Part shown: positions 1-38,813 of the stretch, in pieces
How positions within the stretch are numbered: position 1 is the first letter of the stretch
How the letters are laid out: the number at the start of each line of letters is the position of its first letter
Origin: Escherichia coli
GTDB taxonomy: Bacteria; Pseudomonadota; Gammaproteobacteria; Enterobacterales; Enterobacteriaceae
NCBI RefSeq assembly: GCF_029227855.1
Contig: NZ_CP074356.1
Length of the DNA stretch: 64,000 nucleotides
Reading direction: 5' to 3' (one strand)
Position numbers and translations under genes: made by a program
The notes under the pieces: generated by a model
What the model was told of the DNA's origin: nothing
Seen by the model: the letters and a program-made list of their open reading frames with translations, nothing else
Database searches by the model: none

Positions 1-1697
1 TCGCGGTGCACCGTCGTCACCTGACCAAAACGGTCATGGTCATAGCGGGTTACATAACCGGAACAGTCGGTAAAGCTCAGCAACTGACCGTAACGGCTCC
101 ACGTCATGGTTTTCCGGCTGCCGGTGGCATCTTCCGTTGCGCAGGGGAAGTCACTGTGTGGATTATCATAACGGTAGCGGGTGATATCGCCGTCAGGGGC
201 GGTTTCCTGAATCAGACGGCCGGATTCATCATATTCCCGGCGCAATTCCAGCCCGTCAGGCCCGGTGGCTGACGTTAACTGGTTGTGGTGGTTATAGTAA
301 AATGCCGATGCCCTGCCATCCGGTGTGGTGATGCGCGTGATGAGGCCCGTCACCACATCCGGGCTGTACTCAGTCGTCCGGCCTGCGGCATCCGTCTGTG
401 CCTTAAGCCCGCCCACCGCGTCAAACTGACTCTGCGTGACGCTGCCGTCCGCGTGTTCCTTTTTCACCATCCGCTTCAGCCCGCCTTCGCCCTGCGTGTG
501 CAGCACTTCACGGCGGTCCAGACTGTCGGTGATGGTGATGCGGTCTTTCTCATACTGATACGTGTAGCTTAAGCCTGCCGGGTTTAGCTGTTCTGTCACC
601 CGCCCGTCGCTGTCGTAACGGTAACGGATATCCGGCCGGCCCGTGTGACGGTGCGCCACCATCCGGCCCCGGTATTTATCATCGTAAGTAAAGCTGCGCA
701 CCTGTGTATTGCTGCGGTCATACACCGCCGCCAGTTCGCCGCGTGGCGTCCAGCCATAGCGCACCAGCGGCGCGGCAGGTAAATTCTCCGGGTATTCCGG
801 GTCGTGCGTCAGCCACACGGCAGACAGACGGATGCCGTTGTCCCGGCCATATTCGGTGTAACCCGGCAGGGTATCAGGAAAAACGGACGGTTCCGTCCCG
901 CCGGAAGAGGCCTGCTGCCGGGCTTCTTCTGCCCGCTGCGCCTGCGTGGTCAGTACCAGCCGGAAGTGACGCCCGGCACCATCCGTCACGCCGGTGATTT
1001 CGCCGCTGAATTCACCGGCGGCTTCGCGGTGGAACGTCTGTGTGCGCCCGAAGCGGTCCACCAGCCCGGTCAGTACCCGGTACGGCGGCAGCGGCGCGGG
1101 CAGCACCTCATCCGCTTCCGGCACCCGCTCACACCAGCCGAGCAGCCACCACGGCCCCTGCGGACTGTTTGTCGCCAGATAACGATGCGGACTTAAGCGG
1201 AGTTCTTCCGGCAGCGCCTGCCAGAGTGCGGCCAGCCGGTGACCTTCATCCAGTTTCAGGACACCGCCGCGCACCAGCCAGAGTGACTCGCTGCGGCTGT
1301 AACCGTCCTCACCGGGAAACAGGTGCTCAAAATACAGGCTTCTGCCGCCGTTATCACTGAGTATCAGTGTGTTATCGCGCAGCTGTAAGCGGATATCCGC
1401 AGGCATTTTCCAGCCGGGGCCGAGGCTCCCCACCGGCGCGGGCGTTTTTGTCCGGTAACTGCTGTAGGTGCGGGAGAGGATGAACGGCAGCGGGCCGGGC
1501 AGGGCAAGGTCGGTTTCGCCGGGAAGGACCTTCGCGCCGAGCAGCGGATTGACCGGATGGCCGGACGTCACCCCGCCGGGGCACACCGAACAGGCCACGC
1601 CGGTGGGGGCACCGATGCGCACCCCGGCTGAACCCTGGACAATGCTACCGCCATACTGCGTCATGTCGCCCTGACGCGCCGCCGGTTTTCCACTCAT
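1..1697 (-). CDS. rhsC: Rhs-family polymorphic toxin core protein, N-terminal ~565 codons; gene continues beyond window position 1
   Basis: Reverse-complement translation from the ATG at 1697-1695 reads MSGKPAARQGDMTQYGGSIVQGSAGVRIGAPTGVACSVCPGG... in one open frame to the window edge. Matches my recollection of the RhsC N-terminus. Absent from the ORF track because there is no stop codon inside the window. Confidence 0.85.
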   Translation of the reverse strand, partial: MSGKPAARQGDMTQYGGSIVQGSAGVRIGAPTGVACSVCPGGVTSGHPVNPLLGAKVLPGETDLALPGPLPFILSRTYSSYRTKTPAPVGSLGPGWKMPADIRLQLRDNTLILSDNGGRSLYFEHLFPGEDGYSRSESLWLVRGGVLKLDEGHRLAALWQALPEELRLSPHRYLATNSPQGPWWLLGWCERVPEADEVLPAPLPPYRVLTGLVDRFGRTQTFHREAAGEFSGEITGVTDGAGRHFRLVLTTQAQRAEEARQQASSGGTEPSVFPDTLPGYTEYGRDNGIRLSAVWLTHDPEYPENLPAAPLVRYGWTPRGELAAVYDRSNTQVRSFTYDDKYRGRMVAHRHTGRPDIRYRYDSDGRVTEQLNPAGLSYTYQYEKDRITITDSLDRREVLHTQGEGGLKRMVKKEHADGSVTQSQFDAVGGLKAQTDAAGRTTEYSPDVVTGLITRITTPDGRASAFYYNHHNQLTSATGPDGLELRREYDESGRLIQETAPDGDITRYRYDNPHSDFPCATEDATGSRKTMTWSRYGQLLSFTDCSGYVTRYDHDRFGQVTTVHR

Positions 1698-1883
1698 CTG
1701 CTCATCCTTGTTTTATCGGGTTATTTGTCTGCTGACAGGCGAAACCCTACAGATTTATAAGAAAGCCTTAAGTGAGATATCTGTCAGATAAGAACAATTA
1801 GGAAAATATTTATATATATTTCATGAATATATATTTCGGTTGGGTAATGCGATGTATAAATACTTACCTGAACGTCTTCCCGA

Positions 1884-1926
1884 CAAAAAAACCGCCAGCG
1901 TTTCCGCTGGCGGTTTTCTTTTCTTT
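1884..1926. terminator. Bidirectional intrinsic terminator between ybfA and rhsC
   Basis: Perfect 10-bp stem accgccagcg / cgctggcggt with loop tttc, flanked by an A-run upstream and a T-run downstream. Confidence 0.7.
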
Positions 1927-1944
1927 GAACGTAATATTTAGCAA

Positions 1945-2151
1945 TCAGTAAAAATCACCAGTTGCCTTTTCTGCCTGATCCATCCACACCGGTTTCTCGC
2001 TGGTTTTCGACCAGACGCGGTGCAGGTAGCTGTAAAAGCGGGCGCGGTCTTTCCAGAAAAGCATGAAAGGCAGCGCCAGAACGCCCGCTGCAACCGCATA
2101 AGTACGGCGTAAAAAGATAAGCCATGCAGGATATTCTCTGTAGAGTTCCAT
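1945..2151 (-). CDS. ybfA: Small membrane protein YbfA (68 aa)
   Basis: ORF track 68 aa [23 protein letters not shown]...; position next to kdp and rhsC as in E. coli. Confidence 0.85.
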
Positions 2152-2360
2152 ACTTTTCTCCCCCTTTTGTATCTACCCGGTGAATGGCACCGGAAAAATG
2201 AATTTGTTTATCTGATGAAAATAGTACCGCCTTTTGTGTAATTTTACTACTCATCCGACCACTTATTTTTGCTTATTGATGGTTTATTTACATTCATCGT
2301 GTAATTAAGTTACACAAAAGTTAAATTAATACTAACCATCAGTTAAATCATGGCTTTTGC

Positions 2361-2384
2361 CATTTTTATACTTTTTTTACATCC
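2361..2384 (+). promoter_or_regulatory. KdpE-binding site of the kdpFABC promoter
   Basis: Sequence catttttatactttttttacatcc, a T-rich element I recall as the KdpE operator upstream of kdpF. Confidence 0.6.
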
Positions 2385-2463
2385 CGCCCGAAGATTTTTG
2401 CGAAATCTTTGCAGCCAGAATTCTACCCTTCCGGTATCACTTTTAGGCCACTGGAGGTGCACT

Positions 2464-2553
2464 GTGAGTGCAGGCGTGATAGCCGGCGTGTTGCTGGTGT
2501 TTTTATTACTGGGTTATCTGGTTTATGCCCTGATCAATGCGGAGGCGTTCTGA
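2464..2553 (+). CDS. kdpF: KdpF, 29-aa stabilising subunit of the Kdp K+-ATPase
   Basis: GTG start at 2464; translation [29 protein letters not shown]; stop TGA overlaps the kdpA ATG (tgATGg). Confidence 0.85.
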
Positions 2554-4226
2554 TGGCTGCGCAAGGGTTCTTACTGATTGCCACGTTTTTACTGGTGTTA
2601 ATGGTGCTGGCACGTCCTTTAGGCAGCGGGCTGGCGCGGCTGATTAATGACATACCTCTTCCCGGTACAGCGGGTGTTGAACGCGTACTTTTTCGTTTAC
2701 CTGGCGTCTCTGACAGTGAGATGAACTGGAAGCAGTATCTCTGTGCCATTCTCGGCCTGAACATGCTGGGGCTGGCGGTGCTGTTTTTTATGTTGCTCGG
2801 TCAGCGCTATCTGCCGCTTAATCCACAGCAGTTGCCAGGGCTGTCATGGGATCTGGCGCTGAATACCGCCGTCAGCTTTGTCACCAATACCAACTGGCAA
2901 TCTTATAACGGTGAAACCACGTTGAGCTATTTCAGCCAGATGGCGGGCTTAACGGTGCAAAACTTTCTTTCTGCCGCCAGCGGGATTGCGGTGATTTTTG
3001 CCCTCATTCGTGCATTTACCCGCCAGAGCATGAGCACACTCGGGAATGCCTGGGTCGATCTGCTACGCATCACGTTATGGGTGCTAGTCCCTGTGGCGTT
3101 GTTGATCGCACTGTTTTTTATTCAACAAGGTGCACTGCAAAACTTTCTGCCCTATCAGGCGGTGAATACCGTTGAAGGAGCGAAACAGCTGTTACCAATG
3201 GGTCCGGTGGCTTCTCAGGACGCGATCAAGATGCTCGGCACTAACGGCGGTGGTTTCTTTAATGCCAACTCGTCGCATCCGTTTGAAAACCCAACCGCAC
3301 TGACCAACTTCGTGCAGATGCTGGCGATCTTCTTGATCCCAACAGCGCTGTGCTTTGCCTTTGGTGAAGTGGCGGGCGATCGCCGCCAGGGGCGCATGTT
3401 GCTGTGGGCGATGTCAGTGATTTTTGTCATCTGCGTAGGCGTGGTGATGTGGGCAGAAGTTCAGGGTAATCCTCATCTGCTGGCACTGGGCGCGGACAGC
3501 AGCATCAATATGGAAGGTAAAGAGAGCCGTTTCGGCGTGCTGGTCAGTAGCCTGTTTGCGGTCGTGACTACGGCGGCTTCCTGTGGCGCGGTGATTGCGA
3601 TGCATGATTCGTTTACCGCTCTCGGTGGCATGGTGCCGATGTGGCTGATGCAAATTGGTGAAGTGGTGTTCGGCGGTGTCGGTTCTGGTCTTTACGGCAT
3701 GATGCTGTTTGTCCTGCTGGCGGTGTTTATTGCCGGGCTGATGATTGGTCGTACACCGGAATATCTGGGTAAAAAAATCGACGTACGTGAGATGAAACTG
3801 ACTGCACTGGCGATTCTGGTTACTCCAACACTTGTGCTGATGGGCGCGGCGTTGGCGATGATGACCGACGCCGGACGTAGCGCCATGCTCAACCCTGGCC
3901 CGCATGGTTTTAGCGAAGTGCTGTACGCCGTGTCATCCGCCGCTAACAACAACGGAAGCGCCTTTGCCGGATTAAGCGCCAACTCTCCATTCTGGAACTG
4001 TTTACTGGCGTTCTGCATGTTTGTCGGTCGCTTCGGGGTGATTATCCCGGTGATGGCAATTGCCGGTTCGCTGGTGAGTAAAAAGAGCCAACCCGCCAGC
4101 TCCGGCACGCTGCCAACGCACGGCCCGCTGTTTGTTGGCCTGTTAATCGGCACCGTATTGCTGGTTGGCGCACTGACCTTTATCCCTGCCCTGGCGCTTG
4201 GTCCGGTGGCGGAATATCTCTCCTGA
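2553..4226 (+). CDS. kdpA: Potassium-transporting ATPase subunit A (557 aa)
   Basis: In-frame ATG at 2553 within ORF 2409..4226; [33 protein letters not shown]... matches KdpA; K-12 length 557 aa. Confidence 0.95.
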
Positions 4227-4248
4227 TGATATTGAGTGAGCACTGAAT

Positions 4249-6297
4249 ATGAGTCGTAAACAACTGGCGCTATTCGAACCAACACTTGTCGTTCAGGCGC
4301 TGAAAGAAGCGGTGAAAAAATTAAACCCGCAGGCGCAATGGCGCAATCCGGTGATGTTTATCGTCTGGATCGGCAGTCTGTTAACCACCTTTATTAGCAT
4401 CGCGATGGCAAGCGGTGCGATGCCTGGCAATGCGCTGTTTAGCGCGGCAATTAGCGGCTGGCTGTGGGTCACCGTACTGTTCGCTAATTTCGCCGAGGCG
4501 CTGGCAGAAGGCCGCAGTAAAGCGCAGGCCAACAGTCTGAAAGGGGTGAAAAAAACTGCCTTTGCCCGCAAGCTTCGTGAGCCGAAATATGGCGCTGCGG
4601 CGGACAAAGTTCCTGCCGATCAACTGCGTAAAGGCGATATCGTACTGGTAGAAGCTGGCGATATTATCCCCTGCGATGGTGAAGTCATTGAAGGGGGCGC
4701 ATCGGTCGATGAAAGCGCCATCACCGGGGAATCGGCACCGGTGATCCGTGAATCCGGCGGCGATTTTGCCTCCGTCACTGGCGGCACGCGTATTCTTTCT
4801 GACTGGCTGGTGATTGAGTGCAGCGTTAACCCCGGCGAGACATTTCTGGATCGAATGATCGCGATGGTGGAAGGCGCGCAGCGACGCAAAACGCCGAACG
4901 AGATTGCCCTGACCATCCTGCTGATTGCCCTGACTATCGTCTTTTTACTGGCAACCGCCACGCTGTGGCCGTTTTCCGCGTGGGGCGGTAATGCAGTCAG
5001 TGTAACGGTACTGGTGGCGCTGCTGGTCTGTCTGATCCCAACCACTATTGGCGGCCTGTTGTCAGCGATCGGCGTCGCCGGGATGAGTCGGATGCTGGGC
5101 GCGAATGTGATTGCCACCAGCGGACGTGCAGTTGAAGCAGCGGGTGACGTTGACGTCCTGCTACTGGATAAAACCGGCACCATCACACTCGGTAACCGTC
5201 AGGCATCGGAGTTTATCCCCGCGCAGGGCGTGGATGAAAAAACGCTGGCTGACGCCGCACAACTGGCTTCGCTGGCTGATGAAACGCCGGAAGGTCGCAG
5301 TATTGTGATCCTCGCCAAGCAACGTTTTAACCTGCGCGAGCGCGATGTGCAGTCGCTCCATGCCACCTTTGTACCGTTTACTGCGCAAAGCCGGATGAGC
5401 GGGATCAACATCGACAACCGCATGATCCGTAAAGGTTCTGTCGATGCCATTCGCCGCCATGTTGAGGCTAATGGTGGTCACTTCCCTGCCGACGTCGATC
5501 AAAAAGTCGATCAAGTAGCACGCCTGGGGGCAACACCGCTGGTCGTGGTGGAAGGTTCCCGCGTGTTGGGCGTTATTGCGCTAAAAGATATCGTCAAAGG
5601 CGGTATTAAAGAGCGCTTCGCCCAACTGCGCAAAATGGGCATTAAAACGGTGATGATTACCGGCGATAACCGTCTGACTGCCGCCGCCATTGCTGCGGAA
5701 GCGGGCGTCGATGATTTCCTCGCCGAAGCGACACCAGAAGCCAAGCTGGCATTGATTCGTCAGTATCAGGCAGAAGGCCGTTTAGTGGCGATGACCGGCG
5801 ATGGCACCAACGATGCTCCGGCGCTGGCGCAGGCAGATGTCGCGGTGGCGATGAACTCCGGTACTCAGGCGGCGAAAGAAGCGGGCAATATGGTGGATCT
5901 CGACTCTAACCCGACCAAGTTGATCGAGGTGGTACATATTGGCAAACAGATGCTGATGACCCGTGGCTCGCTGACCACCTTCAGCATTGCCAACGATGTG
6001 GCGAAATACTTCGCCATTATTCCGGCGGCGTTCGCGGCAACGTATCCACAGTTAAATGCGCTGAACATCATGCGCCTGCATTCGCCCGACTCCGCAATCC
6101 TCAGTGCGGTGATTTTCAACGCCTTGATTATCGTCTTTTTGATTCCCCTAGCGTTAAAAGGCGTGAGTTATAAACCGCTTACCGCTTCTGCCATGTTGCG
6201 CCGTAACTTATGGATTTACGGTCTGGGTGGGCTGCTGGTGCCGTTTATCGGTATCAAAGTCATTGATTTACTGCTGACCGTTTGCGGTCTGGTGTGA
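4249..6297 (+). CDS. kdpB: Potassium-transporting P-type ATPase subunit B (682 aa)
   Basis: ORF track 682 aa with P-type ATPase motifs DKTGTIT and [12 protein letters not shown]. Confidence 0.95.
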
Positions 6298-6305
6298 GGT
6301 TTACC

Positions 6306-6878
6306 ATGCGTGGATTACGTCCGACATTATCGACATTTCTCTTTCTGTTATTGATTACTGGCGGCGTTTACCCGCTGCTAACCACCGTGCTGGGGCAATG
6401 GTGGTTTCCCTGGCAGGCCAACGGTTCGTTGATTCGTGAAGGTGATACGGTGCGCGGTTCGGCATTAATCGGGCAGAATTTTACCGGCAACGGCTATTTT
6501 CAGGGTCGCCCGTCGGCAACGGCAGAAATGCCCTATAATCCACAGGCTTCTGGCGGGAGCAACCTGGCGGTCAGTAACCCTGAGCTGGATAAACTAATAG
6601 CCGCACGCGTTGCTGCATTACGGGCCGCTAACCCGGATGCCAGCGCGAACGTTCCGGTTGAACTGGTGACGGCATCGGCAAGCGGGCTGGACAATAACAT
6701 CACCCCGCAAGCGGCAGCCTGGCAGATCCCACGCGTGGCGAAAGCGCGCAATCTCAGCGTTGAACAGCTCACGCAGCTGATCGCAAAATACAGCCAACAA
6801 CCGCTGGTGAAATATATCGGCCAGCCGGTCGTCAACATTGTCGAACTCAATCTGGCGCTGGATAAACTTGATGAATAA
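6306..6878 (+). CDS. kdpC: Potassium-transporting ATPase subunit C (190 aa)
   Basis: Second ATG of ORF 6282..6878 gives the 190-aa K-12 length ([25 protein letters not shown]...); the upstream ATG at 6282 is an alternative start. Confidence 0.85.
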
Positions 6879-9555
6879 CGAACCTTTACGTCCCGACCCC
6901 GATCGTCTGCTGGAACAAACTGCCGCGCCGCATCGGGGGAAGCTGAAAGTTTTCTTCGGTGCCTGCGCAGGCGTCGGAAAGACCTGGGCGATGCTGGCAG
7001 AGGCCCAGCGACTGCGGGCGCAAGGGCTGGATATTGTGGTTGGCGTGGTTGAAACCCACGGGCGGAAAGATACCGCCGCAATGCTGGAAGGGCTGGCTGT
7101 TCTGCCGCCCAAACGCCAGGCGTACCGTGGGCGGCATATCAGCGAGTTTGATCTCGATGCCGCCCTCGCCCGCCGTCCGGCGCTGATCTTAATGGACGAA
7201 CTGGCGCACAGTAATGCGCCAGGTTCTCGTCATCCTAAACGCTGGCAGGACATCGAAGAACTGCTGGAAGCGGGCATTGATGTTTTCACTACCGTCAACG
7301 TTCAGCATCTGGAAAGCCTGAATGATGTGGTCAGTGGCGTCACCGGAATTCAGGTACGAGAAACCGTGCCCGATCCTTTTTTCGATGCCGCCGACGACGT
7401 GGTGCTGGTGGACTTGCCCCCGGACGATCTGCGTCAACGGCTGAAAGAAGGTAAAGTCTATATTGCCGGGCAGGCGGAACGCGCCATTGAACATTTTTTT
7501 CGTAAAGGTAATCTGATCGCCCTGCGCGAATTGGCACTGCGCCGTACTGCCGATCGCGTAGATGAGCAAATGCGCGCCTGGCGGGGGCATCCTGGCGAAG
7601 AGAAAGTCTGGCACACGCGCGACGCGATCCTTTTATGCATCGGCCATAACACTGGTAGTGAGAAACTGGTCCGCGCGGCGGCGCGGCTGGCGTCACGGCT
7701 GGGTAGCGTCTGGCACGCGGTGTATGTTGAAACCCCTACCCTGCATCGCTTACCGGAGAAAAAACGTCGGGCAATTCTCAGCGCCTTACGTCTGGCGCAG
7801 GAGCTGGGCGCAGAGACGGCAACACTTTCTGATCCAGCGGAAGAGAAAGCGGTAGTGCGTTATGCCCGTGAACATAATCTCGGCAAGATTATTCTCGGTC
7901 GCCCAGCCTCGCGCCGCTGGTGGCGTCGGGAAACGTTTGCTGACCGACTGGCGCGCATCGCCCCCGATCTCGATCAGGTGCTGGTCGCGCTTGATGAACC
8001 ACCCGCTCGCACGATTAACAACGCGCCGGATAGCCGCTCTTTTAAAGACAAGTGGCGGGTACAGATTCAGGGATGCGTGGTTGCCGCCGCGTTATGCGCC
8101 GTTATCACCTTAATTGCCATGCAGTGGCTGATGGCGTTTGATGCCGCCAACCTGGTGATGCTGTATCTGCTTGGCGTGGTGGTGGTGGCACTGTTTTATG
8201 GGCGCTGGCCTTCGGTGGTCGCCACCGTCATTAATGTGGTGAGTTTCGATCTCTTTTTTATCGCCCCACGCGGCACGCTTGCCGTCTCTGATGTGCAATA
8301 TCTGCTGACCTTCGCGGTGATGTTAACCGTCGGGCTGGTGATCGGGAACCTTACTGCGGGCGTGCGTTATCAGGCGCGGGTAGCCCGTTACCGCGAGCAA
8401 CGCACACGGCACTTATATGAAATGTCGAAAGCTCTGGCGGTGGGCCGCAGTCCGCAGGACATCGCCGCCACCAGCGAACAGTTTATTGCCTCCACGTTTC
8501 ATGCCCGCAGTCAGGTGCTGTTACCCGATGACAACGGTAAATTGCAGCCGTTAACACATCCGCAAGGAATGACCCCGTGGGACGATGCCATCGCGCAGTG
8601 GAGTTTTGATAAAGGCCTGCCTGCGGGCGCGGGCACCGACACGTTACCCGGTGTACCGTACCAGATTTTGCCGCTAAAAAGCGGCGAGAAAACCTACGGA
8701 CTGGTGGTGGTGGAACCGGGGAATCTGCGCCAGTTGATGATCCCGGAACAGCAGCGCCTGCTGGAGACATTTACGTTGTTAGTCGCCAATGCCCTTGAGC
8801 GGCTGACACTGACCGCCAGCGAAGAACAGGCGCGGATGGCAAGCGAACGTGAACAGATCCGCAACGCCCTGCTGGCGGCGCTTTCGCATGATTTACGCAC
8901 TCCGCTCACGGTGCTGTTCGGTCAGGCAGAAATCTTAACGCTCGATCTGGCGAGCGAAGGATCGCCCCACGCCCGCCAGGCCAGCGAGATTCGTCAGCAT
9001 GTGCTGAACACCACCCGACTGGTGAATAATCTACTGGATATGGCACGAATTCAGTCCGGCGGCTTTAATTTGAAGAAAGAGTGGTTAACGCTGGAAGAAG
9101 TGGTCGGCAGCGCGCTGCAAATGCTGGAACCGGGTTTATCGTCGACCATCAATCTTTCTCTGCCAGAACCGCTGACCTTAATCCACGTTGACGGGCCACT
9201 CTTTGAACGGGTGCTGATTAATCTGCTGGAGAACGCGGTGAAATACGCGGGGGCGCAGGCCGAAATTGGTATCAATGCCCACGTTGAGGGCGAAAATCTA
9301 CAACTGGATGTCTGGGATAACGGCCCCGGTCTTCCACCAGGCCAGGAGCAGACGATATTTGATAAGTTTGCTCGCGGGAATAAAGAGTCGGCGGTACCGG
9401 GTGTAGGGCTTGGGTTGGCAATTTGTCGGGCGATAGTGGATGTACACGGCGGCACCATTACCGCATTCAACCGACCGGAAGGTGGTGCCTGTTTTCGTGT
9501 TACACTTCCCCAGCAAACAGCCCCTGAACTTGAAGAATTTCATGAGGATATGTGA
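6871..9555 (+). CDS. kdpD: Sensor histidine kinase KdpD (894 aa)
   Basis: ATG at 6871 inside ORF 6838..9555 gives [16 protein letters not shown]... (894 aa as in K-12); C-terminal HisKA/HATPase region; 5' end overlaps kdpC stop. Confidence 0.95.
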
Positions 9556-10229
9556 CAAACGTTCTGATTGTTGAAGATGAACAGGCTATTCGTCGCTTTC
9601 TGCGCACGGCGCTGGAGGGCGACGGGATGCGCGTCTATGAGGCCGAAACGCTGCAACGCGGCTTGCTGGAAGCGGCTACCCGTAAGCCAGATTTGATTAT
9701 TCTCGATCTCGGCCTGCCCGATGGTGATGGGATTGAGTTTATCCGCGACCTGCGCCAGTGGAGCGCAGTGCCAGTGATTGTGCTTTCCGCACGCAGCGAA
9801 GAGAGCGACAAAATCGCCGCGCTGGATGCCGGAGCGGATGATTACCTGAGTAAGCCGTTTGGCATTGGCGAATTGCAGGCCCGTCTGCGCGTCGCTTTAC
9901 GCCGCCACTCCGCCACCACCGCGCCCGATCCGCTGGTGAAATTTTCCGATGTTACCGTCGATTTAGCAGCTCGTGTGATCCATCGCGGTGAGGAAGAGGT
10001 GCATCTCACCCCGATTGAGTTCCGCCTGCTGGCGGTGCTGCTGAATAACGCCGGGAAAGTGCTCACCCAGCGCCAGCTCCTTAACCAAGTGTGGGGGCCA
10101 AACGCGGTCGAACACAGTCATTATTTGCGTATTTATATGGGACATCTGCGACAAAAACTGGAGCAAGATCCCGCCCGCCCCCGCCACTTCATTACTGAAA
10201 CCGGTATTGGGTATCGGTTTATGCTTTAG
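9552..10229 (+). CDS. kdpE: Response regulator KdpE (225 aa)
   Basis: ORF track 225 aa [17 protein letters not shown]... OmpR-family; start overlaps kdpD stop (ATGA). Confidence 0.95.
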   Translation: MTNVLIVEDEQAIRRFLRTALEGDGMRVYEAETLQRGLLEAATRKPDLIILDLGLPDGDGIEFIRDLRQWSAVPVIVLSARSEESDKIAALDAGADDYLSKPFGIGELQARLRVALRRHSATTAPDPLVKFSDVTVDLAARVIHRGEEEVHLTPIEFRLLAVLLNNAGKVLTQRQLLNQVWGPNAVEHSHYLRIYMGHLRQKLEQDPARPRHFITETGIGYRFML

Positions 10230-10242
10230 GCGGTTAAATGCT

Positions 10243-10328
10243 GGATCCGGCATGAACGCCTTATCCGACCTACACATCGTCCCGTAGGCATGATAAGACG
10301 CGTCAGCGTCGCATCAGGCATGGCACTC
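10243..10328. repeat. REP/BIME-type palindromic repeats in the kdpE-ybfP spacer
   Basis: ggatccggcatgaacgccttatccgacctaca and gtaggcatgataagacgcgtcagcgtcgcatcaggca are typical REP units. Confidence 0.65.
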
Positions 10329-10340
10329 ATCGCGATATGT

Positions 10341-10835
10341 TTAATGCGTATTTATCTGTTTCAACTCTTGCTGGCATTTTTCTGACTGGCAGCGTCGCAA
10401 CTCGATAATCCCGACATGCATCATCGAGCCAAAAAATCCGCTTTCGCTGACATAATCCTCATTAACAATCGGTCGAGTGCCAGGCTTGCCCTGGCAAACC
10501 CGCATAAAAAATGAGGTGTAGCACTGCCAGCCACGATTTAAACTGCTCTTTTCTTGTGGTGACATATCGTGAAGATAAGTAAGTTCTTTTTCGTTCCCGC
10601 CTGACAACTGCCAGCGGCGGGTATTATCAGGTAAGTTATCGCCACGGCAATTTGTCTTACACCGGGAAGGCGCAATATTTACCGCAATGCTACCCGTTAA
10701 TCCTCTGGTTTTATCTTTAGGGGTCAGTAACCAGTCACCAGCTAATGATGATTGTTCAGGTTGGGCGCATGCTGTCAGCAGTAGTGTGGCGGTAATTAAT
10801 GCCACTCTGACGACCAGACTCCTTTTGGTCTTCAT
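10341..10835 (-). CDS. ybfP: Lipoprotein YbfP (about 164 aa)
   Basis: ORF 10341..10886; likely start at internal MKTKRSLVVRVALITATLLLTAC (signal peptide with lipobox LTAC); matches recalled YbfP. Confidence 0.75.
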   Translation of the reverse strand: MKTKRSLVVRVALITATLLLTACAQPEQSSLAGDWLLTPKDKTRGLTGSIAVNIAPSRCKTNCRGDNLPDNTRRWQLSGGNEKELTYLHDMSPQEKSSLNRGWQCYTSFFMRVCQGKPGTRPIVNEDYVSESGFFGSMMHVGIIELRRCQSEKCQQELKQINTH

Positions 10836-10883
10836 TTTGAATTCCCTTGAGCTATTCAGTTTGTTGGCAAAGTGCTCGTTGTT

Positions 10884-10992
10884 CATGCCGGATGCAGCGT
10901 GAACGCCTTATCCGGCCTACAAAATAGCGCAAATTCAATATATTGCACCATCTTCCCAGGCCTGATAAGCGTAGCGCATCAGGCAGTCATAA
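10884..10992. repeat. REP/BIME repeats between ybfP and pgm
   Basis: gccggatgcagcgtgaacgccttatccggcctaca ... ggcctgataagcgtagcgcatcaggca. Confidence 0.65.
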
Positions 10993-11039
10993 GCAAAAAA
11001 GGGCGATCTTCCGACCGCCCTTTTTCTTATTAAATGTGT

Positions 11040-12680
11040 TTACGCGTTTTTCAGAACTTCGCTAACAATCTCAACCGCTTCTTTCTCAATTTGCTTGCGA
11101 TGTTCTTCCCCAAGGAAGCTTTCACAATAGATCTTATAGGCGTCTTCCGTGCCTGACGGACGCGCGGCGAACCAGCCGTTGTCAGTCATCACTTTCAGAC
11201 CGCCGATAGAAGCACCATTGCCCGGTGCCGCAGTCAGGCGCGCGGTGATCGGGTCACCTGCCAGGGTGCTGGCGCTCACCATTTCCGGAGACAGCTTAGA
11301 CAACGCCGCTTTTTGTGCGGAAGTCGCAGCTGCCTGCAAACGGTTGTAGCTCGGCGCACCAAAGCGTTTTGCCAGTTCGTTGTAGTGTTCCTGCGGGTTC
11401 TTACCGGTGACAGCGGTGATTTCCGCCGCCAGCAGACACATGATGATGCCGTCTTTGTCGGTGGACCACGGCGTGCCGTCGAAACGCAGGAAGGAAGCCC
11501 CTGCGCTCTCTTCGCCGCCAAAGCCGAAGCTGCCGTCGAACAGACCATCAACAAACCATTTGAAACCTACCGGTACTTCTACCAGCTTACGGCCCAAATC
11601 ATTGACCACACGGTCGATCATCGCAGATGAAACCAGCGTTTTACCGACAGCAACATCTTTGCCCCACTGCGGACGGTGCTGGAACAGGTAGTTGATCGCC
11701 ACCGCCAGGTAGTGGTTCGGATTCATCAAACCTGCCGGAGTGACGATACCGTGACGGTCATAATCCGGGTCGTTAGCAAACGCCAGATCGAACTTATCAC
11801 GCAGTGCCAGCAGACCCGCCATCGCACACTCGGAGGAGCAGTCCATACGGATCGCACCGTCTTTATCTAGGTGCATAAAGCGGAAGGTTTGATCGACCTG
11901 ATCGTTAACGATGGTCAGGTTGAGATTGTAATACTCGCCAATACGCTTCCAGTATTCGATACCGGAACCGCCCAGCGGATCAACGCCAAGCGTCAGGCCC
12001 GCTTTCTGAATCGCCGCCATATCAACGATATCGGCCAGCCCTTCCACGAACGGCTGCACCAGATCCTGCTCTTTCACATGACCGGATGCCATCGCTTCGT
12101 CGAGGGAGATACGCTTCACACCTTTCAGGCCATCGGCCATCAGTGCGTTGGCCCTGTCTTCCACCACTTTGGTGACGTTGGTATCAGCCGGGCCACCATT
12201 TGGCGGGTTGTACTTGATACCACCATCTTCCGGCGGGTTATGGGACGGTGTAATCACGATACCGTCTGCCAGCGGGCCACCTTTTTTATTGTGAACCAGG
12301 ATGGCATTGGAAACGGCAGGCGTTGGAGTGAAGCCATTGTTTTCCTGCACAATAACATCAACGCCGTTCGCTGCCAGCACTTCCAGAACGGAAATGAACG
12401 CAGGCTCGGACAGGGCGTGAGTATCTTTACCCACATAGCAAGGGCCAGTGATGCCGTTTTTCGCACGTTCTTCAGCAATTGCCTGAGCGATCGCCAGAAT
12501 GTGCGGCTCGTTAAAGCTGTGGCGCGCTGCACTGCCACGGTGACCGGAAGTACCGAATTTCACCGCGTGCTCCGCATTCCCTGCTTCTGGTTTCAGTACA
12601 TAATATTGCGCCGTCAGTTGGGCGACGTTAATCAAATCACTCTGTTGTGCAGGTTGGCCTGCACGATTGTGGATTGCCAT
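11040..12680 (-). CDS. pgm: Phosphoglucomutase (546 aa)
   Basis: ORF 11040..12731; internal start [21 protein letters not shown]... gives the 546-aa K-12 length; phosphoserine motif [11 protein letters not shown]. Confidence 0.95.
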
Positions 12681-12705
12681 TGCTTTGTCCTTTGTCTGCA
12701 ACGTT

Positions 12706-13251
12706 TTAGATAGTTCCGCAAACCTTCTCAATCAATTCCGCCGGGAATTGCATCGACTGCATGATGTGTTCGATCATGCTGCATTTACGGCCGGTGTTGG
12801 TGTTGGTGATCACCCAATACGGCGTGCCAGGCACATGTTTCGGCTTGGTCTGATTACCATTTTTCAGCAGCGTTTGTTCATCTGCCGCAAAGTAAACGCG
12901 TGTACGACCGTGCAACGATTCCGTTGCCTCGGCAAACGCCTGGGCGTCAAGAGAATATAGTGTAGACAACAGCAGCATAAAGCGATTGACCGCTCGCTTT
13001 TGCTCTGCGTATTCATCCGAAAGCAGAAGTTCACGCATTGCGCGAACCTTGTCTTTAATCGTTTTGACCGGCTTCGCTTCGACGATAGCAGGTGACGCAA
13101 CGCGAACCTCTTTCGTCACCGGAGCAGCAGGCTGTGATGCGGCGGAAAATTTCAACATACGCCGTAAAATGTCGGATGCGCTCTCGCCGATATGCTTAGT
13201 GTGGCTGGCAATATAGCTGTAGAGTTCATCATCAACTTCAATCGTTTTCAT
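12706..13251 (-). CDS. seqA: Replication-initiation negative regulator SeqA (181 aa)
   Basis: ORF 12706..13386; start at [35 protein letters not shown]... matches SeqA; directly upstream of pgm (seqA-pgm operon). Confidence 0.95.
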
Positions 13252-13435
13252 CTTAATCCAGTGCAGTGTCTTAGCTGAATACAAGTCGCCAGGAGTATAT
13301 GAATAAATCCCGGCAGCGGATAGCGTCAAGCCTGGCTTGCAGAAAAACTCGGAATAAACCTTATTTGTTGCAGCCCTGTGGCACAATGGTCAACATAATA
13401 CCCTAACCCGACAACGCGAAAAAAAGAACTTTGCC

Positions 13436-14200
13436 ATGAAATTGAATATCCGCGCGCAAACTGCACAAAACCAGCACAATAATTCTCCCATCGTTCTTGT
13501 CCATGGTCTGTTTGGCAGCCTCGACAACCTTGGCGTACTGGCTCGCGATCTGGTAAACGATCACAATATCATCCAGGTTGATATGCGTAACCACGGTCTT
13601 TCACCGAGAGATCCGGTGATGAATTACCCGTCGATGGCGCAGGATCTTGTTGATACTCTGGATGCACTGCAGATCGATAAAGCAACATTTATCGGTCACT
13701 CCATGGGCGGTAAAGCGGTAATGGCACTTACTGCACTGGCCCCCGATCGCATCGATAAACTGGTGGCGATCGATATCGCACCGGTCGACTATCACGTACG
13801 CCGTCATGATGAGATTTTCGCGGCCATCAACGCAGTCAGTGAATCGGACGCACAAACTCGCCAGCAAGCAGCAGCAATAATGCGCCAGCATCTTAATGAA
13901 GAAGGGGTGATTCAGTTTCTGCTGAAATCTTTTGTTGACGGGGAGTGGCGCTTTAACGTGCCGGTATTGTGGGAACAGTATCCGCATATTGTGGGTTGGG
14001 AGAAAATCCCGGCATGGGATCACCCTGCCCTTTTTATCCCAGGCGGCAATTCTCCGTATGTTAGCGAGCAGTATCGTGATGATTTACTGGCGCAATTTCC
14101 ACAGGCGCGGGCACATGTGATTGCAGGCGCGGGTCACTGGGTCCATGCTGAAAAACCGGATGCGGTATTACGCGCTATCCGTCGCTATCTCAATGATTAA
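13436..14200 (+). CDS. ybfF: Esterase YbfF, alpha/beta hydrolase (254 aa)
   Basis: ORF track 254 aa with GHSMGG nucleophile-elbow motif; matches YbfF. Confidence 0.9.
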   Translation: MKLNIRAQTAQNQHNNSPIVLVHGLFGSLDNLGVLARDLVNDHNIIQVDMRNHGLSPRDPVMNYPSMAQDLVDTLDALQIDKATFIGHSMGGKAVMALTALAPDRIDKLVAIDIAPVDYHVRRHDEIFAAINAVSESDAQTRQQAAAIMRQHLNEEGVIQFLLKSFVDGEWRFNVPVLWEQYPHIVGWEKIPAWDHPALFIPGGNSPYVSEQYRDDLLAQFPQARAHVIAGAGHWVHAEKPDAVLRAIRRYLND

Positions 14201-14339
14201 CGCAACTGATTAAAAACCCAGCGTCCGCGTCGCTTTCCGCGCGCGGGCGTTGGCGTGACTCATCGCGCTGATGTATTATGGCGCGCTATCCATCCGGGCA
14301 GAGGCCTGGCTGATTGTTTCCCCCGAAGTCACCAAGATC

Positions 14340-14633
14340 ATGGCCAAAGAACAAACGGACCGTACGACATTAGATCTGTTCGCGCACGAGCGTCGACCGG
14401 GACGACCGAAAACTAATCCGCTTTCGCGCGATGAACAGCTGCGTATTAATAAACGCAACCAGCTAAAACGCGACAAAGTACGTGGCCTTAAGCGTGTCGA
14501 ACTGAAGCTGAACGCGGAAGCTGTCGAGGCGCTGAACGAGCTGGCGGAGTCGCGCAATATGAGCCGTAGCGAACTGATCGAAGAGATGTTAATGCAGCAA
14601 CTGGCGGCGCTGCGTAGTCAGGGCATCGTTTAA
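14340..14633 (+). CDS. ybfE: Small protein YbfE (97 aa, CopG/RHH-like)
   Basis: ORF 14271..14633; start at [26 protein letters not shown]... gives 97 aa as recalled for ybfE. Confidence 0.8.
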
Positions 14634-14772
14634 ATTTCCACTTTCATGTAGCACAGTGTGCAGTCCTGCTCGTTTGCTGATTCCGCAAGACTGCCTGTTC
14701 TGCTATGATTGCCTTTATCCGTGGGCAATTTTCCACCCCCATTTCAATAAGTTTCAAGAGGTTATTTCACTC

Positions 14773-15303
14773 ATGGCTATCACTGGCATCTTTTTCGGCA
14801 GCGACACCGGTAATACCGAAAATATCGCAAAAATGATTCAAAAACAGCTTGGTAAAGACGTTGCCGATGTCCATGACATTGCAAAAAGCAGCAAAGAAGA
14901 TCTGGAAGCTTATGACATTCTGCTGCTGGGCATCCCAACCTGGTATTACGGCGAAGCGCAGTGTGACTGGGATGACTTCTTCCCGACTCTCGAAGAGATT
15001 GATTTCAATGGCAAACTGGTTGCGCTGTTTGGCTGTGGCGACCAGGAAGATTACGCCGAATATTTCTGCGACGCCTTAGGCACCATCCGCGACATCATTG
15101 AACCGCGCGGTGCAACCATCGTTGGTCACTGGCCAACCGCGGGCTACCACTTCGAAGCGTCAAAAGGTCTGGCTGATGATGACCACTTTGTCGGTCTGGC
15201 TATCGACGAAGACCGTCAGCCGGAACTGACCGCTGAACGTGTAGAAAAATGGGTTAAACAGATTTCTGAAGAGTTGCATCTCGACGAAATTCTCAATGCC
15301 TGA
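14773..15303 (+). CDS. fldA: Flavodoxin 1 (176 aa)
   Basis: ORF 14656..15303; start at [23 protein letters not shown]... matches FldA. Confidence 0.95.
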
Positions 15304-15508
15304 TGTGATGCGGCGTAGACTCATGTCTACGCCGTATTAATAGATAATGCCAATCAAAATAATTGCTACAAATTTGTAACTTTTGCTGTTGTACCTGTAC
15401 AATGTCCCAGTGTTCAAGTGGCCTTGCCGTTGTAAATGTAAGCAGTGCCACGTTTTTATTAACAATATTTGCCAGGGACTTGTGGTTTTCATTTAGGCGT
15501 GGCAATTC

Positions 15509-15527
15509 TATAATGATACGCATTATC
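15509..15527 (+). promoter_or_regulatory. Fur box in the fur promoter/leader
   Basis: tataatgatacgcattatc matches the 19-bp Fur consensus GATAATGATAATCATTATC at 16 of 19 positions. Confidence 0.7.
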
Positions 15528-15599
15528 TCAAGAGCAAATTCTGTCACTTCTCCTAATGAAGTGAACCGCTTAGTAACAGGACAGATTCCGCATGACTGA
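15513..15599 (+). CDS. uof: Uof, 28-codon leader peptide translationally coupled to fur
   Basis: ATG at 15513 to TGA at 15597-15599 (MIRIISRANSVTSPNEVNRLVTGQIPHD); overlaps the fur start by 8 nt. Confidence 0.75.
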   Translation: MIRIISRANSVTSPNEVNRLVTGQIPHD

Positions 15600-16038
15600 T
15601 AACAATACCGCCCTAAAGAAAGCTGGCCTGAAAGTAACACTTCCTCGCTTGAAAATCCTGGAAGTTCTTCAGGAGCCGGACAACCATCACGTCAGTGCGG
15701 AAGATTTATACAAACGTCTGATCGATATGGGTGAAGAAATTGGTCTGGCTACGGTATATCGCGTACTGAACCAGTTTGACGACGCTGGTATCGTCACCCG
15801 CCACAATTTTGAAGGCGGTAAATCCGTATTTGAACTGACACAGCAACATCACCACGATCACCTGATCTGCCTCGACTGCGGCAAGGTAATCGAATTTAGT
15901 GATGATTCCATCGAAGCGCGTCAGCGTGAAATTGCCGCAAAACATGGCATTCGCCTGACTAACCACAGTCTCTATCTTTACGGTCACTGTGCCGAAGGCG
16001 ATTGCCGCGAAGATGAGCACGCGCACGAAGGCAAATAA
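15592..16038 (+). CDS. fur: Ferric uptake regulator Fur (148 aa)
   Basis: ORF track 148 aa MTDNNTALKKAGLKVTLPRLKILEVLQEPDNHHVSAEDLY... identical in form to E. coli Fur. Confidence 0.97.
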   Translation: MTDNNTALKKAGLKVTLPRLKILEVLQEPDNHHVSAEDLYKRLIDMGEEIGLATVYRVLNQFDDAGIVTRHNFEGGKSVFELTQQHHHDHLICLDCGKVIEFSDDSIEARQREIAAKHGIRLTNHSLYLYGHCAEGDCREDEHAHEGK

Positions 16039-16056
16039 GCCAGCCGGAACGAGAAA

Positions 16057-16082
16057 AGCCAACCTGCGGGTTGGCTTTTTTA
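16057..16082 (+). terminator. fur intrinsic terminator
   Basis: Stem gccaacc / ggttggc with loop tgcg, followed by a T-run. Confidence 0.75.
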
Positions 16083-16094
16083 TACACGGGAAAT

Positions 16095-16812
16095 AATAAA
16101 TATCCTCCGGCATAGCCGGAGGTTTTTCAAATGCGCCTATAAGGCTCTCTTACCAGCCGCGCCCTAACAGGCGCACACGATCTGACATTTGCATCCAACT
16201 TCGTTACTTACGGCCCGTAAACGGGCTGCCCGGATAGGGAATCGATAACTGCTCTCCCATTTTATCCTCTTCAAGCTGGTGCTTTATGTAATCCTGTATC
16301 TTCGCCGTGTTCTTACCCACCGTATCGACGTAGTACCCTCTGCACCAGAACTCCCTGTTCCTGTATTTGAATTTCAAATCACCAAACTGCTCGTAAAGCA
16401 TCAGACTGCTTTTCCCTTTCAGATATCCCATAAAGCCGGATACGCTCATTTTGGGCGGGATCTCCACAAGCATATGGATATGATCTGCACAGCATTCAGC
16501 TTCCAGAATCCGTACACTTTTCCACTCACACAGCTTTCTCAAAATACTGCCTATTGCTCTACGCTTCTCTCTGTAGAACACCTGTCTTCGGTATTTTGGC
16601 GCAAAAACTATGTGATATTTACAGTTCCATCGGGTGTGCGCTAAGCTCTTTTCGTTCCCCATTGGGACCCCCTTTTGATTTCTTGTTTGACACTTGCAGT
16701 TGCCAGACCGCAAGGTGTTTTAACAAATCAAAAGGGGTTTTAATAACTGGCTTAAAGCTGAAAGCTTTCCGGAACCCCCAGCCTAGCTGGGGGTTTTCTG
16801 TGCACAAGAAAA
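16095..16812 (-). mobile_element. IS200: IS200 insertion sequence (about 0.71 kb; IS200/IS605 family), boundaries +/- 15 bp
   Basis: Contains the 152-aa HUH/Y1 transposase gene, a perfect subterminal palindrome cccccagc-cta-gctggggg (16775-16793) upstream of tnpA, and a second hairpin cctccggc-ata-gccggagg (16104-16122) near the other end. The fur-chiQ spacer is about 0.7 kb longer than I recall for K-12. Confidence 0.85.
16204..16662 (-). CDS. tnpA: IS200 transposase TnpA (152 aa)
   Basis: ORF 16204..16713; start at MGNEKSLAHTRWNCKYHIVFAPKYRR...; HUH motif HIHMLVEI and catalytic-Tyr region YYVDTVG. Confidence 0.92.
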   Translation of the reverse strand: MGNEKSLAHTRWNCKYHIVFAPKYRRQVFYREKRRAIGSILRKLCEWKSVRILEAECCADHIHMLVEIPPKMSVSGFMGYLKGKSSLMLYEQFGDLKFKYRNREFWCRGYYVDTVGKNTAKIQDYIKHQLEEDKMGEQLSIPYPGSPFTGRK

Positions 16813-16832: not shown

Positions 16833-17159
16833 TTATTTGTTATTACTGCGAATTTCCTGCCAGACCTTATCACAGTCGGCTTTTACCGCCTGATCATTTC
16901 CGGTTTGCGTTGCGCGCAGACACTGCTGATAATCCAGTACGCGGACACTTTCCTGATCGGCAAACTGCTGATGTTGTTTCTCTTTCTTCAGCACGTTTAA
17001 CACGCTCTGGCAGGCTTCAATTTTTTCTGGCGAACCTTGTGCGGTGTTGATACAGGCGCTGTATGCCTCTTTCAGACGGCTGTCTTCCTGTGGCGCGGTT
17101 GATTGCGCACAAGCCACCAGCCCCGATGCCATCATGGCGATGAGAATCAGTTTTTTCAT
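16833..17159 (-). CDS. chiQ: Lipoprotein ChiQ (108 aa)
   Basis: ORF track 108 aa MKKLILIAMMASGLVACAQ...; downstream of chiP in the chiPQ operon. Confidence 0.9.
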   Translation of the reverse strand: MKKLILIAMMASGLVACAQSTAPQEDSRLKEAYSACINTAQGSPEKIEACQSVLNVLKKEKQHQQFADQESVRVLDYQQCLRATQTGNDQAVKADCDKVWQEIRSNNK

Positions 17160-29548: not shown

Positions 29549-29625
29549 GGCTACGTAGCTCAGTTGGTTAGAGCACATCACTCATAATGATGGGGTCACA
29601 GGTTCGAATCCCGTCGTAGCCACCA
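29549..29625 (+). tRNA. metT: tRNA-Met (CAU), elongator
   Basis: ggctacgtagctcagttggttagagcacatcactcataatgatggggtcacaggttcgaatcccgtcgtagccacca; cloverleaf with CAU anticodon and CCA end. Confidence 0.95.
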
Positions 29626-29633
29626 TCTTTTTT

Positions 29634-29718
29634 GCGGGAGTGGCGAAATTGGTAGACGCACCAGATTTAGGTTCTGGCGCCGCAAGGTGTGCGAGTTCAA
29701 GTCTCGCCTCCCGCACCA
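29634..29718 (+). tRNA. leuW: tRNA-Leu (UAG)
   Basis: gcgggagtggcgaaattggtagacgcaccagatttaggttctggcg...cccgcacca; long variable arm, anticodon UAG. Confidence 0.93.
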
Positions 29719-29741
29719 TTCACCAGAAAGCGTTGTACGGA

Positions 29742-29816
29742 TGGGGTATCGCCAAGCGGTAAGGCACCGGTTTTTGATACCGGCATTCCCTGGTTCGAAT
29801 CCAGGTACCCCAGCCA
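29742..29816 (+). tRNA. glnU: tRNA-Gln (UUG)
   Basis: tggggtatcgccaagcggtaaggcaccggtttttgataccggcattccctggttcgaatccaggtaccccagcca. Confidence 0.93.
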
Positions 29817-29850
29817 TCTTCTTCGAGTAAGCGGTTCACCGCCCGGTTAT

Positions 29851-29925: not shown

Positions 29926-29940
29926 TCGAAGAAACAATCT

Positions 29941-38800: not shown

Positions 38801-38813
38801 CTGGAGTAGATTT

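What the first reader, a model, noticed from the sequence alone, without database searches (positions are those of the whole stretch)
1..1697. Rhs polymorphic-toxin gene enters the window; its variable tip and immunity gene lie off-window
The N-terminus MSGKPAARQGD... belongs to an Rhs core protein (contact-dependent antagonism), and the first residues contain a PAAR-like motif. The biologically variable part, the C-terminal toxin domain and its immunity gene, is upstream of position 1 and cannot be assessed here. The 1700-1880 leader is AT-rich.
Basis: partly seen in the sequence, partly recalled or inferred. Interest (0 to 1): 0.35.

Follow-up and report, generated by a model that had tools for sequence, protein, structure and literature searches.

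The report
Start of E. coli rhsC toxin gene
This is the first 565 codons of the well-known rhsC-locus Rhs toxin gene of E. coli, running off the window edge; it is ordinary, apart from a patchy stretch apparently copied from a sister rhs gene.

Summary
Window 1-1697 (minus strand) is an open frame of 565 codons starting MSGKPAARQGD at the ATG at 1697-1695. It leaves the window with no stop codon. It is the 5' 41% of an E. coli clade-I (RhsA-B-C subfamily) Rhs core gene at the classical rhsC position, next to ybfA and kdpFABCDE.

It is 96.7-97.2% identical to K-12 rhsA/B/C and 76% to rhsD. It carries a DUF6531 plug, YD repeats, and a GC-rich core (63%) behind an AT-rich leader (34%).

"PAAR-like motif" is literally right. 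However, it is a single PAAR repeat (aa 2-29), below Pfam's threshold, and not a PAAR domain. The layout matches the solved effector Tse5: a 47-residue N-terminal piece, then Pro48, then the plug.

The toxin tip and immunity gene are off-window and cannot be read. The closest genome (JNEC-KY178) has an intact 1383-aa gene with an Ntox16 tip at this locus.

One addition: the window differs from KY178 at 4 other sites in about 62 kb, but at 42 sites within rhs 243-1388. Of those 42, 41 carry the allele of KY178's rhsA paralogue. That indicates recent inter-paralogue gene conversion, or an assembly or polishing artefact.

The finding is already known and of low interest.

The parts
1..1697 (-). 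5' 565 codons (about 41%) of the rhsC-locus Rhs core gene; open to the window edge
   Evidence: no stop; NF041261 positions 1-573/1261; 97.2/96.8/96.7% nt identity to K-12 rhsC/A/B, 76.0% to rhsD
1611..1694 (-). aa 2-29: single PAAR-like repeat (SGKPAARQGDMTQYGGSIVQGSAGVRIG)
   Evidence: PF05488, 17.4 bits, below the cut-off of 27; matches profile 51-69/70; aligns to the last repeat of PAAR chains 9rce_c, 4jiv_D, 4jiw_D, 8gra_J
1554..1559 (-). His47-Pro48: position homologous to the N-terminal autocleavage sites of Tse5 (K47|P48) and P. protegens RhsA (H304|P305)
   Evidence: Tse5 chain 8cp6_B starts at PVNPMLGSK, aligned to query aa 48 PVNPLLGAK; RhsA 7q97 'STHPV' aligned to query 'SGHPV'; cleavage sites taken from PMC10684867 and PMC8765631. 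Cleavage here is inferred, not shown
1329..1562 (-). aa 46-123: DUF6531, the N-terminal plug of the Rhs cocoon
   Evidence: E 9.8e-19; role as plug taken from PMC10684867
1..842 (-). aa ~286-565: start of the YD-repeat shell (continues off-window)
   Evidence: 4 RHS_repeat stretches, best aa 534-564; aligned to the Tse5 shell 189-469; YD_repeat_2x
243..1388 (.). Interval holding 42 of the 46 substitutions that separate the window from its closest genome. Patches 243-1032 and 1269-1388 are rhsA-like; 1116-1263 is rhsC-like
1698..1815 (-). Conserved ~118-nt rhs leader including the SD (AGGA at 1705-1708). Shared by rhsA and rhsC loci of K-12 and KY178, but not by rhsB or rhsD
1816..1887 (-). AT-rich, locus-specific spacer between the ybfA terminator and the conserved leader (GC about 30% for 1760-1880). 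No sigma-70 consensus found
1888..1917 (-). Stem-loop terminator after ybfA (13-bp stem with T-run). It separates ybfA from rhs transcription
   Evidence: sequence
1945..2151 (-). ybfA (DUF2517), the flanking gene that identifies this as the rhsC position
   Evidence: PF10725, E 1.2e-33; annotation in EFF60, KY178, K-12

Best explanation
Window 1-1697 (minus strand) is the promoter-proximal 565 codons of the Rhs polymorphic-toxin gene at the rhsC position of an E. coli chromosome (ybfA-rhs, beside kdpFABCDE). The in-window part encodes four elements in order: a 45-47 residue N-terminal piece carrying one PAAR-like repeat; a His47-Pro48 junction homologous to the N-terminal autocleavage sites of Tse5 and P. 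protegens RhsA; the DUF6531 plug; and the first YD repeats of the cocoon. By homology with solved Rhs effectors, the full protein would encapsulate a C-terminal toxin, cleave it off with the DPxGL aspartyl protease, and be loaded on a T6SS VgrG spike through the N-terminal piece. A downstream immunity gene would protect the producer. All of this part lies off-window and is inferred. The closest genome has an Ntox16 tip plus a 167-aa downstream ORF there. Relative to that near-identical genome, the rhs core in the window is a patchwork that matches the rhsA paralogue. The best explanation is recent non-reciprocal recombination (gene conversion) between rhs paralogues.
For: Open frame and start.
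Domains.
Subfamily.
Synteny: 3,517 of 5,426 complete E. coli genomes hold at least 80% of window 1-2400, and those listed are annotated 'RHS element core protein | ybfA'. The annotated loci agree.
Tse5-type architecture: with PMC10684867 and PMC8765631.
PAAR-like repeat.
Proxy for the tip: KY178 and EFF60 rhsC are 1383 aa with DPIGL...DPQGL, an identical 136-aa tip matching Pfam Ntox16 (E 2.5e-11), and a 167-aa ORF overlapping by 4 bp.
Mosaic: window versus KY178 has 42 differences in 243-1388 and 4 elsewhere in about 62 kb. The Poisson probability of at least 42 is about 2e-99. Of the 42, 41 equal KY178's rhsA allele.
Best match: across 5,426 genomes, the best match to 1-1697 is an rhsB-locus copy at 99.1%, not a syntenic rhsC copy.
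Against: The toxin tip, immunity gene, C-terminal protease motif and intactness of the remaining ~59% of the gene are unseen. No vgrG or T6SS gene is in the window; the colinear KY178 annotation shows none. No promoter consensus was found, so expression and delivery are unproven. The PAAR model is below threshold. The mosaic is patchy: switches occur within 6 bp at 1263/1269, and site 1170 matches neither KY178 copy. It cannot be reduced to one clean tract. It could also arise from read mis-mapping or polishing across 97-99% identical paralogues. rhsA/rhsC mis-assemblies are documented for EDL933 (PMC7216683).
Confidence: 0.9

Rival explanations
1. The gene is a dead remnant. The off-window part may be truncated, frameshifted or IS-disrupted, so that only the N-terminal core is left and no toxin is made.
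For: Truncated clade-I Rhs proteins are very common in databases. Most of the top hits to the 565-aa fragment are forms of 645-947 aa. Orphan and pseudogene rhs fragments and ISAs1 remnants lie downstream in related loci.
Against: The 565 in-window codons are intact. The two closest syntenic genomes have an intact 1383-aa gene. The window is otherwise nearly identical to KY178.
Confidence: 0.1
2. The rhsA-like patches in 243-1388 are not biology. They are a consensus or polishing artefact, in this assembly or in KY178, caused by reads from 97-99% identical rhs paralogues being mixed.
For: The pattern is patchy at a scale below 100 bp, with allele switches 6 bp apart at 1263/1269. The donor alleles all exist in the same genome. 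Different EDL933 assemblies disagree at rhsA and rhsC, as checked by PCR in PMC7216683. No other genome among 5,426 has this exact allele; the best is 99.1%.
Against: Complete genomes also show mosaic rhs cores. KY178 rhsC shares rhsB alleles at 591-711 and 1018-1026, and EFF60 rhsC is a third mosaic. Heteroduplex repair gives patchy tracts naturally. The reading frame is preserved with no indels.
Confidence: 0.3
3. The protein is not a T6SS-delivered interbacterial weapon in this strain. It may act inside the producer as a toxin-antitoxin-like module, or have a cell-envelope role.
For: This clade is not linked to vgrG, and its carrier is unknown (PMC7216683). Salmonella Rhs elements were reported to act as type II TA-like modules (PMC7043789, title and abstract). 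An RhsA link to capsule export is cited in PMC2935791. From my own knowledge, E. coli K-12 keeps rhsA-D without a T6SS.
Against: The N-terminal piece, plug and cocoon are homologous to T6SS effectors with solved structures, whose PAAR-like N-terminus is needed for secretion. The tip in relatives is a polymorphic-toxin domain followed by a candidate immunity ORF.
Confidence: 0.25

Closest known systems
E. coli K-12 RhsC (b0700) and the RhsA-B-C(-F) subfamily / clade I Rhs elements (Hill and co-workers; Jackson et al. 2009, PMC2935791)
   Same: Same chromosomal position (ybfA-rhs beside kdp). Nucleotide identity over 1697 nt is 97.2%, and amino-acid identity is 97.3%. The first 60 residues are identical. 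Both have a GC-rich core, and the ~118-nt leader is conserved.
   Different: The core here is closer to rhsA- and rhsB-locus copies of related strains (98.8-99.1%) than to any syntenic rhsC (at most 97.8%). In the nearest relatives the tip is Ntox16, unrelated to the K-12 RhsA-D tips. The tip of this copy is unseen.
Pseudomonas aeruginosa Tse5 (PA2684; PDB 8CP6)
   Same: Best solved homologue (E 6e-62). Both have a short N-terminal PAAR-like fragment of ~47 aa, then Pro48-Val-Asn-Pro, then the DUF6531 plug, then the YD shell.
   Different: Residue 47 is His here and Lys in Tse5. Tse5 is encoded next to its vgrG, whereas this gene is an orphan. The Tse5 tip is a pore-former. Cleavage and secretion are not tested here.
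Canonical PAAR domain proteins (PF05488; PDB 4JIV, 4JIW)
   Same: aa 2-29 align with the last PAAR repeat (PAARxGD...GG.I..GS..V.IG).
   Different: There is one repeat instead of three, and it is below the Pfam threshold. A monomer of this size cannot form the three-fold cone.
prePAAR/PAAR Rhs effectors (P. protegens RhsA, PDB 7Q97)
   Same: The 'HPV' cleavage-site motif and plug are homologous.
   Different: There is no transmembrane domain, no full PAAR domain and no Eag chaperone gene nearby. The N-terminal region is ~47 aa instead of ~300 aa.

Membership tests
E. coli Rhs element core protein, RhsA-B-C subfamily (NCBIfam NF041261) | Conserved N-terminal core sequence with YD/RHS repeats | tested here: met
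   NF041261 aligns aa 1-565 to positions 1-573/1261 at 1163.6 bits. The full-length cut-off of 2000 is out of reach for a 41% fragment; the intact KY178 gene scores 2621.7. Pfam RHS_repeat E 2.6e-31.
E. coli Rhs element core protein, RhsA-B-C subfamily (NCBIfam NF041261) | Subfamily-level identity (a few % divergence within RhsA-B-C; more than 20% from RhsD-E) | tested here: met
   96.7-97.2% nt identity to K-12 rhsA/B/C and 76.0% to rhsD
E. coli Rhs element core protein, RhsA-B-C subfamily (NCBIfam NF041261) | GC-rich core in a ~51% GC genome | tested here: met
   63.0% against 51.7%
E. coli Rhs element core protein, RhsA-B-C subfamily (NCBIfam NF041261) | rhsC chromosomal position (between ybfA and ybgA/phr) | tested here: met
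   The ybfA side is seen in the window. The ybgA/phr side is seen only in relatives.
E. coli Rhs element core protein, RhsA-B-C subfamily (NCBIfam NF041261) | Core ends in the RHS-associated core domain with DPxGL-(x18)-DPxGL, followed by a variable tip and an immunity gene | not testable with these tools
   Off-window. Present in the proxies KY178 and EFF60.
PAAR domain (Pfam PF05488) | Score at or above the Pfam gathering threshold | tested here: not met
   17.4 bits against 27; E 0.0053 on the 69-aa N-terminus; no hit at E<=0.01 on the 565-aa fragment
PAAR domain (Pfam PF05488) | Three PAAR repeats (~70-95 aa) forming the cone that caps VgrG | tested here: not met
   Only 45 aa precede DUF6531. 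Only the last repeat aligns.
Tse5-type T6SS Rhs effector | ~47-aa PAAR-like N-terminal fragment, X47|Pro48 junction, DUF6531 plug, YD cocoon | tested here: met
   Alignment to 8cp6_B starting at P48; architecture from PMC10684867
Tse5-type T6SS Rhs effector | Genetic linkage to a cognate vgrG / T6SS | tested here: not met
   There is no vgrG or T6SS gene in the 64-kb window, according to the annotation of the colinear KY178 region, which differs at only 4 sites outside the rhs tract plus the IS200 insertion. The rest of the genome is unseen.
Tse5-type T6SS Rhs effector | N- and C-terminal autoproteolysis and T6SS-dependent secretion | not testable with these tools
   Needs experiment

The most novel reading that the evidence does not exclude
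The mosaic is real. In that case clade-I rhs cores at different chromosomal loci (rhsA to rhsC) exchange sequence by patchy gene conversion, on a timescale at which the flanking ~62 kb has accumulated only about 4 substitutions. This runs against the inference of Jackson et al. [quoted passage not shown] Positional rhs 'orthologues' would then not be orthologous along their length. Conversion tracts reaching the 3' end could also move toxin tips between loci.
Probability: 0.55. Interest if true: 0.3.

Novelty: already known. Interest (0 to 1): 0.1.

Why it matters
It matters little by itself. The locus is a textbook E. coli Rhs element, and the variable part lies outside the window. The practical points are as follows.

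1. The N-terminal 'PAAR' should not be annotated as a PAAR domain.
2. rhs cores cannot safely be treated as positional orthologues or as SNP-typing targets. This copy differs from an otherwise near-identical strain about 570-fold more densely than its surroundings.
3. The toxin type at this locus cannot be guessed from the core. K-12 and the nearest relatives carry unrelated tips at the same position.

Tried and rejected
Extending off-window. No complete E. coli genome holds this allele; the best match to 1-1697 is 99.1%, at an rhsB locus. A protein search with the 565-aa fragment returned matches of at most 97% identity, mostly truncated Rhs forms, because the candidate cap favoured short proteins. 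So the true tip could not be recovered. I did not run the metagenome or GTDB scans. An exact match to a strain-specific ~500-bp mosaic was unlikely, and GTDB holds one genome per species.

Full PAAR domain: rejected.

Promoter: the sigma-70 consensus scan of 1600-2500 found none, against 1.8 expected by chance.

RNA elements: Rfam at gathering threshold found nothing in 1-2400.

Plus-strand ORFs inside 1-1697 (up to 130 aa): treated as GC-rich antisense artefacts. Annotated relatives list only the RHS CDS there.

A single clean conversion tract: rejected. 1116-1263 stays rhsC-like, site 1170 matches neither KY178 copy, and KY178's own rhsC carries rhsB-like patches. The direction and number of events cannot be resolved with these sequences.

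Locating the 3' end of the tract: impossible even in principle from KY178. Its rhsA and rhsC differ at only one site (gene position 1710) between gene positions 1456 and 2684.

Full report
**1. What is there**

On the minus strand, an ATG at 1697-1695 is preceded by AGGA 7 nt upstream. It opens a frame that stays open for 565 codons until the window ends at base 1. The product begins MSGKPAARQGDMTQYGGSIVQGSAGVRIGAPTGVACSVCPGGVTSGHPVNPLLGAK.

- Pfam finds DUF6531 at aa 46-123 (E 9.8e-19) and four RHS repeats (E 2.6e-31).
- The NCBIfam equivalog model 'RHS element core protein' (NF041261) aligns the whole fragment to its positions 1-573 of 1261.
- Upstream lie an AT-rich leader, a strong stem-loop terminator at 1888-1917, and ybfA at 1945-2151 (DUF2517, E 1.2e-33), followed by kdpFABCDE on the other strand.
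- GC is 33.7% for 1700-1880, 63.0% for the gene and 51.7% for the whole window.

**2. Which gene it is**

Of 5,426 complete E. coli genomes, 3,517 hold at least 80% of window 1-2400, and the listed ones annotate it as 'RHS element core protein | ybfA'. In K-12 this position is rhsC (b0700).

Over the 1697 nt the window is 97.2%, 96.8% and 96.7% identical to K-12 rhsC, rhsA and rhsB, but only 76.0% to rhsD. It therefore belongs to the RhsA-B-C(-F) subfamily, which is clade I of Jackson et al. 2009 (PMC2935791).

About 118 nt of leader (1698-1815) are conserved between rhsA and rhsC loci of both K-12 and KY178, but not with rhsB or rhsD. The repeated 'element' thus starts about 118 nt before the ATG. 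A consensus scan found no sigma-70 promoter, and Rfam found nothing in 1-2400.

**3. The PAAR claim**

The letters PAAR occur at residues 5-8.

- On the 69-residue N-terminus, Pfam PAAR_motif gives 17.4 bits against a cut-off of 27. Residues 2-20 match only the last part of the profile (51-69 of 70).
- On the 565-aa fragment the family does not appear at E<=0.01.
- Against solved structures, residues 2-29 align with the last of the three repeats of PAAR proteins: 9rce_c (E 9e-4), 4jiv_D (0.011), 4jiw_D (0.27) and 8gra_J (0.84).
- Only 45 residues precede DUF6531.

So 'PAAR-like motif' is right, but 'PAAR domain' would be wrong. It is a single repeat.

**4. How it most likely works**

The best solved homologue is P. 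aeruginosa Tse5 (8cp6, E 6e-62). The Tse5 shell chain starts at Pro48 (PVNPMLGSK), which aligns with Pro48 of this protein (PVNPLLGAK).

Tse5 is cut between Lys47 and Pro48. [quoted passage not shown] P. protegens RhsA is cut at His304|Pro305 (PMC8765631). Its 'STHPV' aligns with 'SGHPV' here.

By homology, I infer the following.
- The in-window part encodes the spike-loading piece, a probable autocleavage junction (His47|Pro48; window 1554-1559), the plug and the first YD repeats.
- The off-window part would supply the rest of the cocoon, the DPxGL aspartyl protease, the toxin and the immunity gene.

What is shown is the sequence homology and architecture. Cleavage, loading on VgrG, secretion and toxicity are inferred.

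One fact counts against a simple T6SS story. No vgrG or T6SS gene is in the window. The literature also notes that the rhsA/B/C clade is not vgrG-linked, and that it is unclear which VgrG, if any, carries it (PMC7216683).

**5. The off-window tip**

The tip cannot be read. As a proxy, the closest genome (E. coli JNEC-KY178) and EFF60 have an intact 1383-aa gene at this locus. That gene has:
- DPIGL-x17-DPQGL;
- an identical 136-aa tip matching Pfam Ntox16 (E 2.5e-11);
- a 167-aa ORF overlapping by 4 bp (weak DUF6714, E 1e-4, below cut-off).

An orphan Rhs C-terminal fragment and an ISAs1 (ybfD) remnant follow. This tip has no BLASTP similarity to the tips of K-12 RhsA-D. The same locus therefore carries different toxins in different strains.

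A protein search with the fragment did not find the same allele (at most 97% identity, mostly truncated forms).

**6. An addition: a conversion-like mosaic**

The whole window is colinear with KY178. From 16806 to 64000 there are 3 substitutions in 47,195 bp. From 1 to 16100 there are 43, of which 42 lie in rhs between 243 and 1388. At the background rate, 0.07 differences are expected in that interval (Poisson P about 2e-99).

At 41 of the 42 sites the window carries the allele of KY178's own rhsA paralogue.
- The window equals rhsA at 243-1032 (except site 345) and at 1269-1388.
- It equals rhsC at 1116-1263 and 1518-1692.
- Site 1170 matches neither copy.

KY178's rhsC itself shares rhsB alleles at 591-711 and 1018-1026, and EFF60's rhsC is a third mosaic. 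Across all complete genomes, the best match to 1-1697 is an rhsB-locus copy (KE55, 99.1%). Within KY178, the best match is the rhsA-locus copy (98.8%), not the syntenic rhsC copy (97.5%).

The simplest reading is recent patchy gene conversion between rhs paralogues, which fits the name 'rearrangement hot spot'. [quoted passage not shown]

The alternative is consensus or polishing error across near-identical repeats, which I cannot exclude without reads. rhsA/rhsC assembly discrepancies are documented for EDL933.

Because KY178 rhsA and rhsC are almost identical from gene position 1456 to 2684, the far end of the tract cannot be located. It could extend off-window.

**7. Verdict**

This is a known gene at a known locus, and the informative end is missing. 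Interest is low. The only mildly interesting point is the dense rhsA-like mosaic in an otherwise near-identical background.

The confidence of 0.9 applies to the identity and architecture of the in-window part. My confidence in T6SS delivery is about 0.6, and in real gene conversion about 0.55-0.65.

Noticed in passing
window 16101-16805 (minus strand): An IS200 copy lies between fur (15592-16038) and chiQ (16833-17159). It is absent from the otherwise near-identical genome JNEC-KY178. The tnpA ORF at 16204-16662 matches Pfam Y1_Tnp (E 3.8e-38). Rfam STnc490 (the IS200 5' UTR sRNA) matches 16672-16795. The insertion sits just after the fur terminator hairpin.
   Followed up: partly
window ~10230-11040: The speFL-speF-potE operon, found after kdpE in K-12 and EFF60, is absent here and in KY178. 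In its place is a 164-aa ORF (10341-10835, minus strand) with no Pfam match, annotated 'hypothetical protein' in KY178.
   Followed up: partly
window 1698-1815: About 118 nt upstream of the rhs ATG are conserved between rhsA and rhsC loci (K-12 and KY178), but not rhsB or rhsD. The repeated Rhs element therefore includes its own leader. No promoter consensus was detected in it.
   Followed up: partly
window 41158, 56563, 61637 and 16097: These are the only substitutions relative to KY178 outside rhs, across about 62 kb. The site at 16097 abuts the IS200 junction and may be an alignment-edge effect.
   Followed up: no
L002 7046-7549 and 6376-6960 (KY178, off-window proxy): Downstream of the Ntox16-tipped rhsC is a 167-aa candidate immunity ORF (weak DUF6714, below cut-off). 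After it come an orphan Rhs C-terminal fragment that retains the RHS core motif, and an ISAs1 (ybfD) remnant.
   Followed up: partly
window 29549-30249; 38640-38802; 60006-60364: Ordinary RNA features: a seven-tRNA array (Met-Leu-Gln-Gln-Met-Gln-Gln), the sRNA sroC in the gltI-gltJ region, and a cspA-type 5' UTR upstream of cspE.
   Followed up: no
one search hit list (not in window): Very many E. coli genomes encode truncated 645-718-aa clade-I Rhs proteins. Many of these carry a DUF4329 (PF14220) domain and cover about 89% of this N-terminal fragment. This suggests a common, conserved truncated or alternative Rhs form.
   Followed up: no
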